A stretch of DNA of 64,000 nt from a virus (Duplodnaviria > Caudoviricetes). Numbering within the stretch: the stretch's first letter is position 1; each line of letters begins with the position of its first letter. Below the pieces are notes generated by a model. It ran no database searches, had not been told where the DNA came from, and saw only the letters and a list, made by a program, of their open reading frames with translations. Shown in pieces: positions 48,052-57,488 of the stretch. The stretch lies in IMG/VR virus record IMGVR_UViG_3300028392_002123. One strand, 5' to 3'. A program made the translations under genes and the position numbers.

Positions 48052-48882
48052 TTAATCGTTACTGGCACCGGCGCCGCACTTAGCACGTTTGGCATTGGTT
48101 AATGCGCCAAAATCTACTGGCCATTCTTGACCTGGTTGTAGTTCTCGAGCGTTGGCAGGGAAAGCATACTTAACACCGGCAGTCTGCATAATCTGTGCCA
48201 CAGGCATGCGGAATTTAGTTAAATCATTGCCCAAGTTAGGATATGGAGCTGTGTGTGGGAATGCCCAACCTGCAATTTCATTGGTTTGATTATTGATAAC
48301 AATTTTGTAGAATCCGTGCGGTACAACTACGCCATTGCCAATCTTTTTATCAGTAGCATCATAGACACCGCCTACATAAACTGTGTAGCTTTGATTGCGT
48401 TGTACTGCCCATCCACGTACACTTGTTTCCAATAGTTTCCAAATGCCACGATTTAGGCTACCAGCCTGCGGGCTCATATTAGTCATTAAAAAGCTTTCAA
48501 ACTCTACTTGAACGTCCCATGACAAATCGCCATCTGGACTCATGTGCCCTTTATCATAGCCAGTACCTGCGTAATCGTCGGGACGGGCTCCTCCTGGAAC
48601 TGATTGATCAGCAACAAAAGCATTAGTGCGAGCGACACAGCCGAGAGCGTTTTGAGGTAGTAGTTCATAGGTTACATATTTAGGTAATTTGGCAGCGGCA
48701 TCGTAGCCTACCAAGTATGCTTGACGACAAATAGGCTGTACGCCTGCTGTCTGTGGAAAACCGTAGGGTGCATGTACCTTGCAGGTCTGTGGATCCTGTG
48801 GCGGCCTTTGTGTCCACGCAACAGCATTGCCAAATCCCACCGTTACTAGTAGGATTAAAATTAGTTGTTTCATTGATTTCAT
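48052..48882 (-). CDS. Secreted DNA/RNA non-specific endonuclease (NucA/EndG family)
   Basis: Signal peptide; GYDKGHMSP, NMSPQ..LNRGIWKLLE, VPHGFYKIV. Confidence 0.92.
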   Translation of the reverse strand: MKSMKQLILILLVTVGFGNAVAWTQRPPQDPQTCKVHAPYGFPQTAGVQPICRQAYLVGYDAAAKLPKYVTYELLPQNALGCVARTNAFVADQSVPGGARPDDYAGTGYDKGHMSPDGDLSWDVQVEFESFLMTNMSPQAGSLNRGIWKLLETSVRGWAVQRNQSYTVYVGGVYDATDKKIGNGVVVPHGFYKIVINNQTNEIAGWAFPHTAPYPNLGNDLTKFRMPVAQIMQTAGVKYAFPANARELQPGQEWPVDFGALTNAKRAKCGAGASND

Positions 48883-48887
48883 TTTGT

Positions 48888-49523
48888 TTACTTCCATATG
48901 ACCATTTTAAACCTTTCCTTAGGTATGCCAAAATAATCGCATTTCCAATCGGACTGTGCGAAGAATTCCAAGCTGTGCCATTTATCTTTATATTTAATCA
49001 GATTCTTCGCGGCATCCTGCCAATCTATGTTTAATAACACAGGTTCTATTTTATTTTTAATGGCTGTAATTTCTTCATAGCTGAAACTGTCCCATTCCCA
49101 GTGTAGTATTTCAAATGCATTACCCGCGCGATCCACATAGTCCATGCTGAAATCTAGACCCCATTTAGAACGTATATTAATTATTTTATGAATTAAAGGC
49201 AGTGATTCTGCCCAATACTTTAATTCAGCCAAGGCTGGCCCTGTGTAACCCTTGCGTTCAAATAATAAACTGTGATTTAATACAGCGCCTTCTATTACGT
49301 TGTACTGTGTAAACCAGTCTTGTTTAACAGCACGAATATGATCCCTGTGTAATCTAGGCTTGACATAATTACTGTAAGCATAGTGCTGTTCTAGCACAGT
49401 TAAATCGTAGCCATTTTGATCAAATAGATCTAAGTCTTCTTTAGTGGGAATGTACACTAATTTTTTAATTGGTTTATCCCAGAAAGCCTGGGGATTAAAT
49501 TCATTATTTGTTACGGATAACAT
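48888..49523 (-). CDS. Hypothetical phage protein
   Basis: 211 aa ORF. Confidence 0.7.
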   Translation of the reverse strand: MLSVTNNEFNPQAFWDKPIKKLVYIPTKEDLDLFDQNGYDLTVLEQHYAYSNYVKPRLHRDHIRAVKQDWFTQYNVIEGAVLNHSLLFERKGYTGPALAELKYWAESLPLIHKIINIRSKWGLDFSMDYVDRAGNAFEILHWEWDSFSYEEITAIKNKIEPVLLNIDWQDAAKNLIKYKDKWHSLEFFAQSDWKCDYFGIPKERFKMVIWK

Positions 49524-49529
49524 TTAATT

Positions 49530-50873
49530 TTATTTATTTTTACCGCGGCGCATGTTCATTTGCCAACGTGCCAGCTGTCCTTTACGACCCGATGCATGAC
49601 TGGCCTTTTCCAGTTCGGCCATGGTGGCATGTTTGGGTATGCCATGACGAACGCTGTCTCCGGGGCGACCCGGGCCTTTGCCATCCGCAAAGTTTTCCTC
49701 TACACCCGGTTTTTTAACAGGACTCCAGTGGAACACAGTCATGCCCATACTGGGATATTCTTCCGGTTGCCACTTTGCACCCAGTATGTTCTGTATCACA
49801 GGAACAAAATACCGACGATATAAGCTGGCACGGTTATCACCTTTGGCAGTAAATGATACGCCAGGTGGACGAGCTTTGGCCATGTATTCAGGCAACTGTC
49901 GTTTAACAATATCAAGAACTGTGCTCAATATTTTCACTGTTGATCGGCTGGCACTTGTGGCCTGGCTTGGTGTGTCGTAATTGCCATTCACAGCAAATGT
50001 GATGTGCAAGGTGTCATTGAATTCACTGCGATCAAAGAACACATCTACCCAGTGGCCATCCACAGTGGCATGAAACAGACTGCGCTTTCGCTTGCGATTG
50101 GGCTTGTATTCAGCAGGTGCATTGCCCAGCTCAGTGATGGGCTCAACAGCAATCCAAGCCATGATATCGGTCTTGTTCAACAACTCGGCCGCGGCCCATG
50201 CTCTATGATTACCGTCTAAGATATAATTATTAGAATCTAAGACAATAGGATGTTTATCTATATAATGTAAACTGTGTTCTCCGGCATGTTCTGGATCAAT
50301 ATACATAACACGATTATAAGGATCATCGGTTTCACTGCCTTGTTCTTCATCATTGTATTCTTGATCGGGTATATGTATATCGGCCAGTGGCACACGTTTT
50401 AATTCATATTCTGGATATTTCATTATCAAGTTTTTTAAAAACCCACCACCCTGTTGGTCCTTGGGATGTATTTTACTTACATAACTCCATACTTGTTCAG
50501 CTGAAGCAATCTTAGTAGATATAGATGTTTCCCACACGCGAACATCTTCGCCTTTGTGCTTGTTCCAGAATCCTGCGCCTGCATCAGTTTGATCCCAGCT
50601 ACGCTGTATTTTGTAACCTTGGCTTTTAACAAAGTCATACATTATTTTAGCAATTCCTTGATTACGGAATTTTTCTTTGACAAATAAATCTTGGGGATCT
50701 AATTCCCGACCGTCGCCGATGTTAAATGTAACATGCCCTAGTTCGTTGCCCCAAGTTGAATCAAGTGCATTTACAAACAGTTGGCCATTGTCCTTGACCA
50801 TTCTGAATTGCAGGCCTTCAAAATCTTGTAGTTTACCCTGCTCACGTTCAACTATAAATTCATGTGCTCTCAT
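49530..50873 (-). CDS. Polyprotein: GNAT + ParB/Srx-like + unknown repeated module + basic C-terminal module
   Basis: Leader MRAHEFIVE; FRNQGIA; PIVL..ILDGNHRAWA; junctions VWE, ITE, GVEE. Confidence 0.8.
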   Translation of the reverse strand: MRAHEFIVEREQGKLQDFEGLQFRMVKDNGQLFVNALDSTWGNELGHVTFNIGDGRELDPQDLFVKEKFRNQGIAKIMYDFVKSQGYKIQRSWDQTDAGAGFWNKHKGEDVRVWETSISTKIASAEQVWSYVSKIHPKDQQGGGFLKNLIMKYPEYELKRVPLADIHIPDQEYNDEEQGSETDDPYNRVMYIDPEHAGEHSLHYIDKHPIVLDSNNYILDGNHRAWAAAELLNKTDIMAWIAVEPITELGNAPAEYKPNRKRKRSLFHATVDGHWVDVFFDRSEFNDTLHITFAVNGNYDTPSQATSASRSTVKILSTVLDIVKRQLPEYMAKARPPGVSFTAKGDNRASLYRRYFVPVIQNILGAKWQPEEYPSMGMTVFHWSPVKKPGVEENFADGKGPGRPGDSVRHGIPKHATMAELEKASHASGRKGQLARWQMNMRRGKNK

Positions 50874-52798
50874 CTGCTGGCCACCTTAATAGGTTCTCCT
50901 GGCTTGACATGCATGGCGGCCTGCCAATCTCGTGCTTTTTGTTCACGATTTTTTTGTCCTTTTAAGCCAGGATTAATATTCTTTGTAACTTGTTTTGTAT
51001 TGTTAAAACTCTTAGTTCTAGGTCTAACAAACTGTATCCAATACCATATACTGCTCAGCGCGGCCGCTGTGGGTGTGGCCACTATTTCAGGTTTGGCAAC
51101 AAAATCCACAGGATGATTAATAAATTTAGAAATCCACTCTCCGGCTTTTTGATAATTATATTTTCCAGTTAACTGCAAATATCCTCGGCCATGATATTTT
51201 GCGCCATCGCCGGGTTTGTCGTTGCCCAATATTTTGGCCTTGGCTGGATTAAATCTTATATCATATTTCTTTGCAAATTGTTCAGGAGTGCCATATTCAT
51301 TCATGGTGTTAAAGTTATCACTTTCATGAGCACACTGAGCCATAAATGCCGCTAACTCTGCGGGATTTTTAATAAATTGTTTGGCCCATTTTAATAAAAA
51401 ATCTACCTTGGGATTATTAGCCACGGACTGTGGTTTAGTATCTGTTTTTGCCTGTGCGCCCAAGGCGCTTACTGTGGCGCCTCCGGCCATGCCTTTAAGG
51501 AATCCTCTGCGATCAATGTCTTCCCCTACATCTTGTTTTATTCTTACTAGGTCAAATCCAATATGGTCACCGGTATCATGTACATTTTTTAATTGATATC
51601 CCCAGGATGTAGCATAACGTTGAAGTAACTTTGAATATAAACTAATTCTACTGTCTTTTCCTTGTTCTTCGCCTTTGGCGCCGGTAAATGATATAAATCT
51701 CGGCTGTTCTTTTGTCGTTAGAAATTCTTGTATGGCACTTAATACTGTGGCAAAGATTCTCTGTGAATCACCGTCGCCAGTTGCATCTTGACTATTGTTT
51801 CTCCAAAATTCAACGGTGTACACATCATCATCTTCTTTATTGAACATGATACTTAAATTAGAACCGTCTGGTAATTTAGTATACGCATCGTGGTCACCAA
51901 ACTCCCCGTGTTCCCATTGAAGCGGATAGGGCTGATTAAAGGCTTCCTCCAGACTTTCAGGAGTCCAGGCCATGTTTTTACTGCCCTTGACTGTGGGTTT
52001 GAATCCCTGTCCCTTATAGAATTTTGTCAGTTTGGCCTGGCTTACCTGTCCTTTGTCCCAGGGATATAGTGTAAGACTTATATTATCTTCTCGGGCCAGC
52101 CGCTGTAGTTCCGCCATGGCGCGAGTACCCACTCCTTGACGCAGAGGATATGCTTGAAACCATTTGACTTCCACAGCATCTTTTTTGCTCATGCTGGGCA
52201 CTAGATCAAACATGGCAAACTGTTGTTGTTCACCTTCGCCCCATACCATAATATGATTATTTTGAAATGTATGCGGATACAAGTCATAGACCTTTTTAAT
52301 CCAGTCTTTGGCACGTTGAGGTACTGTTAGTTTTATAGTGTCTTCGGCTACATCATGATTCAGCGAATTTGCCAACTGAGATATAGGAACTCCCGCGGCC
52401 TTGTAACCACGTGCTATACGAGCAATATAAGTTTTACGAGGTCTAGTGCCTTCTAAGTGTTCTCTAGTCGCCGGAGTCATAGTGTACAATTCTGCTACAA
52501 CTTTATTGCCGTCAACGTATACTGGCACAGTTTTTCTATCATATAAATGAGGATAACCTTCTGTACGATCTAGTTCGGCCAACATATTTCTGTCCAAGGC
52601 CCATAGTACTCCTACAACTTCTTGACCTGCTTCGGGACGCACATTAGCATATTGAAACATTTCATATTCAAAGTTTTTAAGCACAGCGGTGCCTACAAAA
52701 TCAGCACCACGCATTATCTTAGGATCTGTTAGCATGCCATATGCAAAATAGTATATGGGTACTGCACCTGCTTCTATTAGAAAATCACTGGCTTTCAT
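50870..52798 (-). CDS. Polyprotein: GGCT + GNAT + unknown module + Tat signal + GH19 lysozyme
   Basis: Leader MKASDFLIE; YFAYG...LDRTEG (GGCT); RQGVG (GNAT); RRGFLK; FMAQCAHES, YHGRGYLQLTGKYNY (GH19). Confidence 0.88.
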   Translation of the reverse strand: MKASDFLIEAGAVPIYYFAYGMLTDPKIMRGADFVGTAVLKNFEYEMFQYANVRPEAGQEVVGVLWALDRNMLAELDRTEGYPHLYDRKTVPVYVDGNKVVAELYTMTPATREHLEGTRPRKTYIARIARGYKAAGVPISQLANSLNHDVAEDTIKLTVPQRAKDWIKKVYDLYPHTFQNNHIMVWGEGEQQQFAMFDLVPSMSKKDAVEVKWFQAYPLRQGVGTRAMAELQRLAREDNISLTLYPWDKGQVSQAKLTKFYKGQGFKPTVKGSKNMAWTPESLEEAFNQPYPLQWEHGEFGDHDAYTKLPDGSNLSIMFNKEDDDVYTVEFWRNNSQDATGDGDSQRIFATVLSAIQEFLTTKEQPRFISFTGAKGEEQGKDSRISLYSKLLQRYATSWGYQLKNVHDTGDHIGFDLVRIKQDVGEDIDRRGFLKGMAGGATVSALGAQAKTDTKPQSVANNPKVDFLLKWAKQFIKNPAELAAFMAQCAHESDNFNTMNEYGTPEQFAKKYDIRFNPAKAKILGNDKPGDGAKYHGRGYLQLTGKYNYQKAGEWISKFINHPVDFVAKPEIVATPTAAALSSIWYWIQFVRPRTKSFNNTKQVTKNINPGLKGQKNREQKARDWQAAMHVKPGEPIKVASR

Positions 52799-53250
52799 TT
52801 TCCATAGCCCCAATGCTTTTTGCCATTTTTACGGTGCTTTTTAGATTTCTTAATTATTTGATCTGGTTCACCAAAGTCTACTTTAATCACACGACCAGTC
52901 TTGGGATTCTTTGTATAGACTTTAATTTTTTCTTTTTTCTCAATGACAGTTTCTTCACCCATGTGTTTAAAATACTGTACTTCTCGTTCACGCTTTTCAG
53001 CACCAGCATGAGTAGGATACTTACCCAAATTTTTACCAGTTTTTTTGCTTTTTAATTCCCAGCCACCTTTGACTTTGACAATATGTTCTAGCAGAGTCAT
53101 GTCATTTCCCGGAGATTCGACTATGTATGTTGCTATATGAGTTGTTTTATTGATGCCAACAATAACTGTTTCGACAATAGTGCCGTTTATGTTAAATTCT
53201 AAAATATCGCCAATTTCTGGCTGGCCAGTATCAACTTCGTTTAATCGCAT
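52795..53250 (-). CDS. Small multi-module protein with CTS-like leader
   Basis: MRLNE; modules after LLE and VIE (KNLGKYPTH..., KVYTKNPKTG). Confidence 0.65.
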   Translation of the reverse strand: MRLNEVDTGQPEIGDILEFNINGTIVETVIVGINKTTHIATYIVESPGNDMTLLEHIVKVKGGWELKSKKTGKNLGKYPTHAGAEKREREVQYFKHMGEETVIEKKEKIKVYTKNPKTGRVIKVDFGEPDQIIKKSKKHRKNGKKHWGYGK

Positions 53251-53709: not shown

Positions 53710-54090
53710 CTAATTTTTGTGTAAATCAATCAAAATCTGTTTGACAACATCTTTGCCCAACGGATCTTTGCGCTTGACGCTACGGCAAAGAGCACTGAAC
53801 CATACCCTGGCCGCTGTTTCCGGACTGTGCTCGTTGTCATCTATTTGATCATCATCTAGATAACTGGAAAATTTATTGATATACGCTTGGTGCAATCTAA
53901 GTTTAACGCTGTCGCCCACAGGAACCTGATTATTAACTTTAAGCAGGATAACAATGGCAGTGGCTTGATCCATTAGTTCGTCGTTCCATACAAAAGTATC
54001 GCCGGCTACATGCGCTGGCCTACCGCTGAGTTTACTGATCAACTTGGCTTCATTGACATTAGTAGCCAAGATCTGTGTGGTCGAATTCAT
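53710..54090 (-). CDS. Hypothetical protein
   Basis: AGAGGA RBS before ATG 54090. Confidence 0.6.
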   Translation of the reverse strand: MNSTTQILATNVNEAKLISKLSGRPAHVAGDTFVWNDELMDQATAIVILLKVNNQVPVGDSVKLRLHQAYINKFSSYLDDDQIDDNEHSPETAARVWFSALCRSVKRKDPLGKDVVKQILIDLHKN

Positions 54091-54673
54091 AGTTAATATC
54101 CTCTTTGTCAATGATTTCTAAAAATTTATCGGGATCCATGACATATCCATAACCCACATATTTGGCATATCTTGCAAGAAAAGCTTTGCTGTCAAAGTAA
54201 TTTAAACACAGTCTATGATTACGTGCATCGTCGATGCCCGGTCCGTATACCGTTAGATCTTTGTGTACAGCCACTTGACAGCAGGTAAAATCAAAAGCGG
54301 CAAACACTGAATCTAAGTTGGGATAATAAGCACGTCTGATCAACTGCACTTTATGATCGCCCACTTGATAAGTTGTGGCATTTGCGCTGGCAAAAGTTTC
54401 GTAGAGCCCGTTGCCGAAATCTTTGATGAGTCTTGTTTCAAGTTCTTCAAACTGTGCTCGACTACTAAACCAAACATCAATGTCTGCAAAATTTCTTTCG
54501 CCCAAGGCCAATTGTCGGCCTGCACCACCTGCAATCCACGGCCCGAATTGGGGCGCGGCATGTTCTAATATTACATCAACAATGTTCTCTAGGGTGGGTT
54601 TTCTTTTTGGTGTTGAATGTGGGTTATCGGCAAGCCAGTTATCAATGGCATTATTGAGTTGATCGAAATTCAT
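54059..54673 (-). CDS. Pol-beta-superfamily nucleotidyltransferase (CCA/poly(A) polymerase head-like)
   Basis: WIAGGAGR...ADIDVWF (GG-x-DxD), FDFTCCQVA. Confidence 0.7.
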   Translation of the reverse strand: MNFDQLNNAIDNWLADNPHSTPKRKPTLENIVDVILEHAAPQFGPWIAGGAGRQLALGERNFADIDVWFSSRAQFEELETRLIKDFGNGLYETFASANATTYQVGDHKVQLIRRAYYPNLDSVFAAFDFTCCQVAVHKDLTVYGPGIDDARNHRLCLNYFDSKAFLARYAKYVGYGYVMDPDKFLEIIDKEDINYEFDHTDLGY

Positions 54674-56819: not shown

Positions 56820-57488
56820 TTAGGCCGCACCAGCAACCTTCTCTTTAGTACGACCATAAGCCGCAATACCAAGAACAGCACCCATGGCCACGTGGAATAG
56901 TCCGGCACCTTGCAGGGTCAGTGGTTGCCATTGATTGGTAACACTACCATGACTTAGTGCTTGTAACACACTCCATAAAATTGGAAATATAGTAAAGTCG
57001 CAGACACAGACCATCATGTACATCCAACCCATAACTGGACGCCATTTTTTGTTGATCCAATCTGTGTTGTCATTGGCCACTAAAACATCTGCACCCTGTG
57101 CGGCATTACTGCCGGCCGCAGTTAAATTTTGTTGTTGTTGAGGTACCCCATTGTTTGCCACGCTGCCACCAAATCCTGTGGAGCTACCTGTGCCAAAGCC
57201 ACCGGTTGATCCGGAGTTGCTTGACCCAAACGCTGACGTTCCAGTTCCTGTACTATTACCAAAGCCGGTGCCAGCGCCAAAGCCTCCTGCTGACGGTTGG
57301 CCAAATGCTGAAGCGCCGCTTGGTGCGCTGGGTGTTGTTGACGTTGCATTACTTGATCCTCCTAGTGAGCTGTAATCAGTTGTAGGAACAGTACCCGAAT
57401 AAGAAGATTGTTTAATCTGTGGTAACTTAGAGTGATCTAAGTTAGGATCATCTTTTGGATCACTGTCATCATCATTCATTCTTGCCAT
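56820..57488 (-). CDS. GTA-type 3TM holin-like protein with long Gly/Ser/Thr N-terminal extension
   Basis: WINKKWRPVMGW, hydrophobic helices, LGIAAYGRTKEK. Confidence 0.7.
   Translation of the reverse strand: MARMNDDDSDPKDDPNLDHSKLPQIKQSSYSGTVPTTDYSSLGGSSNATSTTPSAPSGASAFGQPSAGGFGAGTGFGNSTGTGTSAFGSSNSGSTGGFGTGSSTGFGGSVANNGVPQQQQNLTAAGSNAAQGADVLVANDNTDWINKKWRPVMGWMYMMVCVCDFTIFPILWSVLQALSHGSVTNQWQPLTLQGAGLFHVAMGAVLGIAAYGRTKEKVAGAA

What the first reader, a model, noticed from the sequence alone, without database searches (positions are those of the whole stretch)
50870..51525. Cryptic internal twin-arginine signal before a GH19 lysozyme, exposed only after cleavage
Seen: DVGE-DIDRRGFLKGMAGGATVSALGAQA-K at about residue 430 of 642 (RRGFLK at 51494-51511, AQA at 51449-51457), followed by an intact GH19 domain. 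Known: Tat signals (S/T-R-R-x-F-L-K, h-region, AxA) work at the N-terminus and export folded proteins. Inference: cleavage after Glu unmasks the signal, so a latent muralytic enzyme is exported by host Tat, giving protease-gated and holin-independent access to peptidoglycan. An internal translation start is not evident.
Basis: partly seen in the sequence, partly recalled or inferred. Interest (0 to 1): 0.85.

Follow-up and report, generated by a model that had tools for sequence, protein, structure and literature searches.

The report
Hidden Tat-type signal before phage muramidase
A huge freshwater phage encodes a four-module protein whose last module, a cell-wall-cutting GH19 enzyme, carries a conserved twin-arginine export signal buried 430 residues in, directly after a protease-type Glu site. 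This suggests a packaged enzyme that is cut free and then sent across the host membrane.

Summary
The gene (50870-52798, minus strand, 642 aa) reads leader | GGACT | unnamed module | DUF6934-like | V-G-E|D-I-D-RRGFLK-GMAGGATVSALG-AQA|K | GH19.

The motif is not chance:
- 27 cluster representatives and 9 viral loci carry the same [LIV]-x-E|..RRGF-L..A-x-A-K element before GH19, in 11 unrelated upstream contexts.
- RR is invariant although its codons and the h-region vary.
- Another 140 relatives carry a non-RR version (E|G-W-K-D-W plus an Ala/Gly-rich segment) at the same place.

Module borders fall on [LIV]-x-E sites. In relatives the same module is a separate gene that starts with a 9-residue leader resembling the T4 capsid-targeting sequence. 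Related genomes encode the T4-type prohead protease. No internal start codon exists in 4 of 4 fused genes.

The cleavage-unmasking idea is therefore supported by comparison, but not shown. The "holin-independent lysis" part is not supported:
- Five related genomes also carry an ordinary leaderless, signal-less GH19 endolysin.
- A prohead protease would cut inside the capsid.

My best reading is a capsid-packaged, injected muramidase re-exported by host Tat. This is a new variant of known kinds and remains untested experimentally. Other first-stage notes on this genome raised the leader and linker idea; no other DNA was reported.

The parts
50870..52798 (-). Whole gene, 642 aa. A four-module 'polyvalent' protein, translationally coupled (ATGA overlaps) to the upstream 151-aa gene and the downstream 447-aa polyvalent gene.
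52772..52798 (-). Nine-residue leader MKASDFLIE, ending in L-I-E. It resembles the T4 IPII/IPIII capsid-targeting sequence MKTYQEFIAE.
   Evidence: PMC9026906
52343..52771 (-). Module 1: GGACT/AIG2-like gamma-glutamyl cyclotransferase domain, ending at V-A-E157.
   Evidence: Pfam; BLAST HSP borders
51944..52342 (-). Module 2: unnamed domain, ending at L-E-E290. Other first-stage notes call it GNAT-like; I did not test that.
   Evidence: HSP borders cluster at 154-168 and 285-295
51521..51943 (-). Module 3: DUF6934-like domain, ending at V-G-E431, the predicted cleavage site.
51449..51520 (-). Tat-type signal D432-A455. It has an n-region DID, a twin arginine (51506-51511), FLK, a weakly hydrophobic h-region GMAGGATVSALG, and a c-region AQA. 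The predicted signal-peptidase cut is before K456.
51413..51448 (-). Short polar linker (KTDTKPQSVANN) between the signal and the catalytic domain. It is disordered in the model.
50912..51412 (-). GH19 muramidase/chitinase-fold catalytic domain, with catalytic Glu497 (51323-51325) and Glu506 (51296-51298).

Best explanation
The gene encodes a modular cargo polyprotein of a huge T4-related freshwater phage. SHOWN by sequence and comparison: (1) There are four unrelated modules whose borders lie at hydrophobic-x-Glu sites. (2) The last module is a unit made of a Tat-type signal (RRGFLK, weak h-region, AQA-K), a short linker and an intact GH19 muramidase. (3) This unit is conserved, with an invariant RR, behind many different upstream modules, or directly behind a 9-residue leader that resembles the T4 capsid-targeting sequence. 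(4) There is no internal start codon. (5) The phage lineage encodes a T4 gp21-type prohead protease and a separate ordinary endolysin. INFERRED: the leader brings the polyprotein into the prohead core, and the prohead protease cuts after L-I-E, V-A-E, L-E-E and V-G-E. This leaves a GH19 protein that begins D-I-D-R-R-G-F-L-K, a signal peptide with a free N-terminus. The pieces are ejected with the DNA into the next host. There the host Tat system exports the muramidase to the periplasm and signal peptidase I cuts at AQA|K. The enzyme then acts on the wall of the newly infected cell. What it achieves there (local wall loosening, help with entry of DNA or further cargo, or effects on superinfection) is unknown. 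A share of unpackaged precursor may also be exported in the producing cell.
For: Coordinates and motif. Tat features: Pfam TAT_signal E 0.001; TIGR01409 matches 14 of 18 relatives; the h-region best 12-residue Kyte-Doolittle mean is 1.2, against 2.5-2.8 for the two ordinary Sec signals in this window. Conservation: RR and L are invariant at 39-76% identity while the h-region varies, and the Arg codons vary synonymously. Junction: [LIVMF]-x-E precedes the signal in 26 of 27 RR-type and 138 of 140 W-K-type relatives, against a 1.7% background; the 19 fused RR-type proteins fall into 11 unrelated upstream contexts. Module borders lie at VAE157, LEE290 and VGE431. Stand-alone genes read leader-E|D-M-S-RRGFL. 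In one relative of 1765 aa the signal-GH19 unit lies mid-protein with about 900 aa after it, which is hard to export without cutting. T4 leaders were read from NC_000866, and the gp21 L/I-x-E rule and CTS come from PMC9026906. Peptidase_S77 is present in 3 of 5 large related contigs, which share a DNA polymerase 55-61% identical to the window's. The signal region is disordered and lies outside the fold. A separate leaderless GH19 endolysin is present in 5 of 5 related genomes. No cellular Tat-GH19 ancestor was found in 43 bacterial homologues.
Against: There is no experimental evidence for cleavage, packaging, ejection or export. The window copy scores below the Pfam cut-off and is missed by TIGR01409 at E 0.01. 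Its -1 residue is Asp, not Ser/Thr. The window's own genome could not be searched for the protease. The leader's role is inferred only from its likeness to T4. Most relatives (about 140) have a non-RR segment at this position, so Tat cannot be the general route for the family. The benefit of a periplasmic muramidase early in infection is unclear. No cultured relative carries the module.
Confidence: 0.42

Rival explanations
1. The signal works in the producing cell without prior cleavage. The internal (or leader-preceded) Tat signal inserts as a loop, the upstream modules stay in the cytoplasm, and signal peptidase releases GH19 into the periplasm. The enzyme then acts as an auxiliary, holin-independent lysis enzyme. 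This is closest to the first reader's outcome.
For: In stand-alone genes the leader plus signal reads like an ordinary Tat signal peptide with an 11-12 residue n-region. The A-x-A-K c-region is conserved in 22 of 27 RR-type proteins. From my own knowledge, not tested here, N-terminal extensions are tolerated by Tat.
Against: The lineage already has a canonical cytoplasmic-type GH19 endolysin. A freely released active muramidase made from late genes would give untimed lysis. The strict [LIV]-x-E site directly before the signal has no role in this model. In the 1765-aa relative about 900 aa would have to follow GH19 through Tat.
Confidence: 0.17
2. The segment is a weakly hydrophobic membrane-insertion or SAR-like tether, not a Tat signal. 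After ejection, the muramidase inserts into or sits at the inner membrane from the periplasmic side and opens the wall for DNA entry, like the lytic domain of T7 gp16. The arginines serve only as a positive flank.
For: About 140 relatives have an Ala/Gly-rich segment with W-K-D-W instead of RR at the same place. Such composition is typical of SAR domains (PMC9239132). Lysozyme domains in polyvalent proteins have been proposed to breach the wall at entry (PMC5512222).
Against: The full RRGFL consensus, not just positive charge, is invariant, and 14 of 18 sequences match TIGR01409. The h-region after FLK is only about 12 residues, too short for a stable helix across the membrane. Relatives carry tail or baseplate lysins for entry: an 895-aa GH19-bearing protein and a 1091-aa lysozyme-bearing ORF lie near the head genes.
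Confidence: 0.2
3. The signal is an unused relic. A once stand-alone exported GH19 gene was fused into polyproteins by module shuffling, and the signal now serves only as a flexible linker.
For: Modules shuffle freely in this family. The region is disordered in the model.
Against: RR is invariant in 19 fused proteins with 11 different upstream contexts, while neighbouring residues and the Arg codons vary. No cellular Tat-GH19 donor was found.
Confidence: 0.08
4. An internal translation start produces a separate Tat-GH19 protein from within the long ORF.
For: Several stand-alone genes have a second in-frame ATG two codons before RR (E-D-M-S-R-R). A purine-rich AGGGGAA lies 4 nt before ATT in the window.
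Against: In 4 of 4 fused genes with DNA available, the codon at that position is ATT, ATA, TTT or TTA, and no ATG, GTG or TTG lies in the 12 preceding codons.
Confidence: 0.03

Closest known systems
T4 internal proteins IPI, IPII, IPIII and Alt (capsid-targeting sequence plus gp21 cleavage)
   Same: A short N-terminal leader of the M-K-x-x-x-E-F-I-x-E type ending in [LI]-x-E. The lineage has a gp21-family (Peptidase_S77) protease. Diverse, fast-shuffling cargo genes share only the leader (PMC9026906, PMC3012670).
   Different: Here several cargo modules are strung into one polypeptide with internal Glu sites, and one cargo carries a second, host-directed export signal. Packaging has not been shown.
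Polyvalent proteins of phages and conjugative elements (Iyer et al. 2017, PMC5512222)
   Same: Unrelated enzymatic domains (GGACT, GNAT, ParB-like, lysozyme-type) in one phage polypeptide, proposed to be delivered with the DNA and processed into units.
   Different: That paper proposes zincin (MPTase) self-processing. Its text has no occurrence of 'signal peptide', 'twin-arginine' or 'transmembrane'. Here the borders look like prohead-protease sites and a cryptic export signal is present.
Bipartite transit peptides of thylakoid-lumen Tat substrates in chloroplasts (from my own knowledge, not checked here)
   Same: A Tat signal that is internal in the precursor becomes N-terminal only after a processing protease removes what precedes it.
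   Different: That is organelle import in plants with a stromal peptidase. This is a phage polyprotein with a capsid protease, and what is removed here is a set of functional enzymes, not a targeting peptide.
Exported endolysins: SAR endolysins (P1 Lyz, phage 21 R, Mu gp22) and Sec-signal endolysins
   Same: A muralytic enzyme reaches the periplasm through a host export pathway by a weakly hydrophobic N-terminal segment, without a large-hole holin (PMC9239132).
   Different: Those signals are N-terminal, Sec-dependent and serve lysis of the producing cell. I found no report of a Tat-dependent phage endolysin in the paper search. This signal is internal and linked to a capsid-type leader, and the lineage has a separate ordinary endolysin.
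Virion-associated lysins (T4 gp5, T7 gp16, GH19 domains in baseplate or tail proteins)
   Same: A muralytic domain carried in the particle. GH19 domains lie within large tail or baseplate-region proteins of Synechococcus phage S-B68 and Escherichia phage IME392.
   Different: Those act from outside as part of the tail or ejectosome and carry no cleavable export signal.

Membership tests
Twin-arginine (Tat) signal peptide | Consensus S/T-R-R-x-F-L-K | tested here: met
   The window reads D-R-R-G-F-L-K. Relatives mostly read S/T-R-R-G-F-L-G. RR and L are invariant and G-F at least 90% conserved.
Twin-arginine (Tat) signal peptide | Profile score above the curated cut-off (PF10518 / TIGR01409) | tested here: not met
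   The window copy scores 18.6-19.1 bits against a cut-off of 22.7 and has no TIGR01409 match at E 0.01. At family level, 9 of 18 match Pfam and 14 of 18 match TIGR01409 at E 0.01.
Twin-arginine (Tat) signal peptide | Weakly hydrophobic h-region followed by an A-x-A c-region | tested here: met
   GMAGGATVSALG has a Kyte-Doolittle 12-mer mean of 1.2, against 2.5-2.8 for the Sec signals in the same window. AQA|K is present, and A-x-A-[KRG] occurs in 22 of 27 RR-type relatives.
Twin-arginine (Tat) signal peptide | Located at the N-terminus of the translated protein | tested here: not met
   RR is at residues 430-431 of 642, and there is no internal start. It would be N-terminal only after the predicted cut at Glu.
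Twin-arginine (Tat) signal peptide | Export depends on TatABC and on the RR pair | not testable with these tools
   This needs expression in wild-type and tatC laboratory strains with an RR-to-KK control.
Glycoside hydrolase family 19 (phage muramidase type) | Pfam match above the cut-off, GH19 fold and the two catalytic Glu residues | tested here: met
   PF00182 scores 39.6-42.3 bits against 25.5. Foldseek finds phage GH19 endolysins 7r6s, 9ms7 and 4ok7. E497 and E506 are invariant.
T4-type capsid-targeted internal protein | About 10-residue N-terminal leader like MKTYQEFIAE, ending in [LI]-x-E | tested here: met
   The window has MKASDFLIE, and MRAHEFIVE in the next gene. Relatives have MRANEFVTE, MRAVEFIAE and similar. 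The leader pattern is enriched at gene starts: 7 of 69 against 6 of 420 internal Met, p = 7e-4.
T4-type capsid-targeted internal protein | The genome encodes a gp21-family prohead protease | tested here: inconclusive
   The window's own genome is not available. Peptidase_S77 was found in 3 of 5 large related contigs whose DNA polymerases are 55-61% identical to the window's.
T4-type capsid-targeted internal protein | The protein is found processed inside virions and is ejected | not testable with these tools
   No cultured relative carries the module.
Polyvalent protein (Iyer et al. 2017) | Several biochemically disparate domains in one phage polypeptide | tested here: met
   GGACT, an unnamed module, DUF6934-like and GH19. 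Relatives swap in GNAT, ParB, deaminase, nucleotidyltransferase and amidoligase domains.
SAR endolysin | N-terminal, uncleaved, weakly hydrophobic transmembrane domain of about 16-20 residues that tethers an inactive enzyme | tested here: not met
   The segment is internal. After FLK it is only about 12 residues long, and it is followed by a conserved A-x-A-K cleavage-type motif. Tethering itself was not testable.

The most novel reading that the evidence does not exclude
A phage packs a muramidase into its capsid as part of a polyprotein. The prohead protease trims it so that a Tat signal becomes N-terminal. After injection, the host's own Tat system carries the phage enzyme back out to the periplasm. 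This would be the first phage-ejected effector with a secondary host-sorting signal, comparable to injected bacterial effectors that carry organelle-targeting signals. The roughly 140 relatives with a non-RR segment would be the Sec or spontaneous-insertion counterpart.
Probability: 0.3. Interest if true: 0.85.

Novelty: new variant of a known kind. Interest (0 to 1): 0.68.

Why it matters
Phage-ejected proteins are generally thought to act in the cytoplasm or as part of the entry channel. A conserved, cryptic export signal on capsid cargo would mean that phages can address injected enzymes to a second compartment of the new host, using the capsid protease as the unmasking step. It also shows that the 'polyvalent protein' cargo of huge environmental phages has a readable grammar: a leader, Glu-site punctuation and sorting signals. 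That grammar can be used to predict mature products. It defines a large, unannotated class of signal-bearing GH19 muramidases (more than 190 cluster representatives) distinct from the lineage's ordinary endolysin. The prediction can be tested directly with one fragment, one RR-to-KK mutant and a tatC strain.

Tried and rejected
- Internal translation start: rejected. There is no ATG, GTG or TTG within 12 codons before RR in 4 of 4 fused genes.
- Chance motif: rejected on conservation.
- Recent capture of a cellular Tat substrate: no support. None of 43 bacterial GH19 homologues has an RR signal, and the one leader-type hit is a likely phage contig binned into a MAG.
- This GH19 as the phage's only endolysin: rejected for the lineage.
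- Finding the protease in the window's own genome failed. No genome is held, only a 12.9-kb copy of the locus could be fetched, and a protein search seeded with a related protease listed no cluster on the 340,548-base contig among the best 120.
- The first three related viral contigs (11-38% complete) lacked the protease.
- Cultured relatives by DNA polymerase (Atu_ph07, Phosso, Vibrio 2.275.O, Munch; 44-47% identity) lack the module, so no model phage is at hand.
- The T4 late-promoter word TATAAATA is not enriched in the window.
- The domain after the RR signal in one 1183-aa relative has no Pfam match.
- No close phage record exists at DNA level.
Full report
**1. What is in the sequence**

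The minus-strand frame 50870-52813 is open. The real start is ATG 52798, which overlaps the stop of the upstream 151-aa gene in an ATGA. This gives a 642-aa product identical to a metagenomic protein seen on contigs of up to 340,548 bases.

The gene stop overlaps the start of the next gene (49530-50873), which is another multi-module protein.

Pfam and PHROGs place four features:
- a GGACT/AIG2 domain in the first 150 residues;
- a weak DUF6934 match at 341-401;
- a TAT_signal match at 432-452 (18.6 bits, E 0.0017, below the 22.7 cut-off);
- a GH19 domain (39.6 bits, above the cut-off; PHROG endolysin families down to E 2e-33).

An AlphaFold model of 425-647, built on an 18-sequence alignment, has a confident core at 468-634 (pLDDT above 90). 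Residues 425-462, which are the signal and its linker, are disordered with pLDDT below 50. The best structural matches are phage GH19 endolysins and GH19 chitinases. The two catalytic Glu residues (E497, E506) are invariant.

**2. The motif is conserved, not chance**

A word-indexed search and an exhaustive HMMER search returned hundreds of mosaic proteins from large metagenomic phage contigs.
- Among them, 27 cluster representatives carry the same element: hydrophobic-x-E, two or three residues, RRGF-L, an Ala/Gly-rich stretch, then A-x-A-K.
- Nine viral-contig loci carry it too.
- In an alignment of 18 such modules sharing 39-76% identity, both Arg and the Leu are invariant and G-F is at least 90% conserved. 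That is as conserved as the catalytic residues, while the h-region differs freely.
- The Arg codons vary synonymously between loci (CGC/CGT, then AGA/CGA/AGG/CGG/CGC), so selection acts on the protein.
- TIGR01409 matches 14 of 18 members and Pfam TAT_signal 9 of 18.

The window's copy is one of the weaker ones, with Asp at -1 and a very Gly/Ala/Thr/Ser-rich h-region. The h-region's best 12-residue hydropathy is 1.2 in the window and 1.6-1.75 in relatives. The two ordinary N-terminal Sec signals in the same window (the secreted nuclease and the TctC-like protein) score 2.5-2.8. That fits a Tat- or SAR-type segment, not a classical Sec signal or a stable anchor.

**3. The Glu site is a module border**

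BLAST alignment ends between this protein and its relatives pile up at three places: around V-A-E157, L-E-E290 and V-G-E431. The protein is therefore leader | GGACT | module 2 | DUF6934-like | signal-GH19.

A [LIVMF]-x-E word ends two or three residues before RR in 26 of 27 RR-type proteins. Its background frequency is 1.7% per position. The 19 fused examples fall into 11 unrelated upstream contexts, so the junctions are largely independent.

In relatives the same unit is a separate gene that starts with a nine-residue leader and runs straight into the signal. One example is M-R-A-N-E-F-V-T-E | D-M-S-R-R-G-F-L in locus L002, whose neighbouring genes start with the same kind of leader. The Glu that ends the leader in stand-alone genes is thus the same position as the Glu that ends the preceding module in fused genes.

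One 1765-aa relative has the signal-GH19 unit in the middle, with about 900 residues of other modules (including an amidoligase) after it. Another relative has an RR-type signal before an unknown domain and a second, non-RR segment before its GH19.

**4. A wider class**

Of about 205 GH19-bearing relatives, 191 have an Ala/Gly-rich segment 60-130 residues before the catalytic Glu. About 140 of these read E | G-W-K-D-W, then the segment, often followed by A-x-A-K. In 138 of 140 a [LIVMF]-x-E word comes immediately before it. In several, a LysM-like peptidoglycan-binding motif, recognised by eye in the printed sequences, follows the segment and precedes GH19.

The RR type is therefore a minority form of a general design: a cryptic signal-like segment opens the wall-targeting unit.

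**5. What the leader and the Glu sites probably are**

I read the T4 internal-protein genes from NC_000866. IPII and IPIII begin M-K-T-Y-Q-E-F-I-A-E | A, and IPI begins with a 19-residue leader ending I-T-E.

The review PMC9026906 states that:
- these 10-19-residue propeptides are capsid-targeting sequences;
- the first ten residues of IPIII suffice for packaging;
- gp21 cuts after L/I-x-E;

The leaders here are close in pattern: M-K-A-S-D-F-L-I-E in this gene, M-R-A-H-E-F-I-V-E in the next, and M-R-A-x-E-F-[IV]-x-E in relatives. The pattern is enriched at gene starts in the window (7 of 69 starts against 6 of 420 internal Met, p = 7e-4).

No whole genome is held for the window. I therefore searched large related viral contigs. 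Peptidase_S77, the gp21 family, is present above its cut-off in 3 of 5, namely the three most complete. There it lies next to an acidic core-like protein and a coiled-coil scaffold-like protein. All these contigs carry a DNA polymerase 55-61% identical over its full length to the window's.

By DNA polymerase, the nearest cultured phages are huge T4-related myoviruses (Atu_ph07, Phosso, Munch and others, 44-47% identity). They lack this module.

**6. Rivals**

- *Internal initiation is unlikely.* The codon two before RR is ATT, ATA, TTT or TTA in the four fused genes with DNA available, and no canonical start lies within 12 codons.
- *A relic signal is unlikely,* given the invariance of RR across independent fusions. 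There is also no cellular donor: none of 43 bacterial GH19 homologues has an RR signal.
- *A lysis role in the producing cell is weakened by two facts.* A prohead protease acts inside the prohead, so a cut product would be enclosed. All five related genomes also carry a conserved ~208-aa GH19 protein with no leader and no hydrophobic segment, the expected ordinary endolysin, besides tail- or baseplate-associated lysins. Its counterpart is not in this 64-kb window.
- *Export of uncut or unpackaged precursor by loop insertion cannot be excluded.* Nor can a membrane-tether role during entry, especially as most relatives lack RR.

**7. Comparison with what is known**

Iyer et al. 2017 (PMC5512222) described polyvalent proteins with lysozyme domains and proposed that they help breach the wall at invasion, with zincin-type self-processing. 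The words 'signal peptide', 'twin-arginine' and 'transmembrane' do not occur in that text.

A full-text search for twin-arginine, endolysin and bacteriophage gave no report of a Tat-exported phage lysin. The exported endolysins known are Sec-dependent SAR or signal-peptide types.

From my own knowledge, the nearest logical precedent for a protease-unmasked Tat signal is the bipartite transit peptide of thylakoid-lumen proteins.

**8. Verdict**

- The cleavage-unmasking idea is well supported by comparison, but not shown.
- The lysis interpretation is replaced by a packaged-and-injected reading, which is inference.
- Earlier first-stage notes on this same genome had raised the leader and Glu-linker idea. 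I reached it independently and tested parts of it here. No similar finding on other DNA was reported by the scan.

Noticed in passing
L093-L097 (related viral genomes G002, G003, G004, G006, G007): Every related genome examined carries a conserved ~208-aa GH19 protein with no leader and no hydrophobic segment, presumably the ordinary endolysin. It is about 30% identical to the window's GH19 module and has no counterpart inside this window.
   Followed up: partly
Relatives P0004-P0269 and loci L010-L067: About 140 relatives carry a non-RR cryptic segment (L-E-E | G-W-K-D-W, then an Ala/Gly-rich stretch, often followed by A-x-A-K) in front of GH19, in some with a LysM-like motif in between. It looks like a Sec- or SAR-type counterpart of the RR signal.
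   Followed up: partly
window 48052-48897 (-): An Endonuclease_NS family nuclease with a classical, strongly hydrophobic N-terminal Sec signal lies in the same translationally coupled gene string. The same nuclease family also follows the GH19 gene in relative L091. It may be a periplasmic nuclease.
   Followed up: no
window 49530-49700 (-), C-terminus of the 447-aa neighbour: The basic C-terminal module (N-F-A-D-G-K-G-P-G-R-P ... W-Q-M-N-M-R-R-G-K) recurs in relatives directly after the leader and before the signal-LysM-GH19 unit (L014, L018). It is a mobile module of unknown function.
   Followed up: no
L001-L003, L008, L009, L015: Stand-alone leader-signal-GH19 genes often have a second in-frame ATG two codons before RR (E-D-M-S-R-R). 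This could give a leaderless Tat-signal form by alternative initiation. It is not universal: TTA in L030 and ATA in L040.
   Followed up: partly
window 54059-54673 (-) and 56820-57488 (-): Precomputed Pfam hits on the identical JGI contig give Gad2 (an anti-Gabija family) for the 204-aa ORF and a weak GTA_holin_3TM hit for the 222-aa ORF.
   Followed up: no
L011, L024, L025, L028, L029; P0137: Many relatives have a module after the leader made of a Lys/Arg run followed by a Gly/Tyr/Pro-rich low-complexity stretch (K-K-R-K-R-K ... A-A-Y-G-P-G-P-Y-G-G-Y-G-Y). Its function is unknown.
   Followed up: no
L002 2273-2863; P0127, P0130: Leader-bearing genes or modules with an H-E-x-x-H zincin-like motif (weak DUF6782 matches) occur next to, or fused with, the signal-GH19 unit. 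They are an alternative candidate for the processing protease.
   Followed up: no
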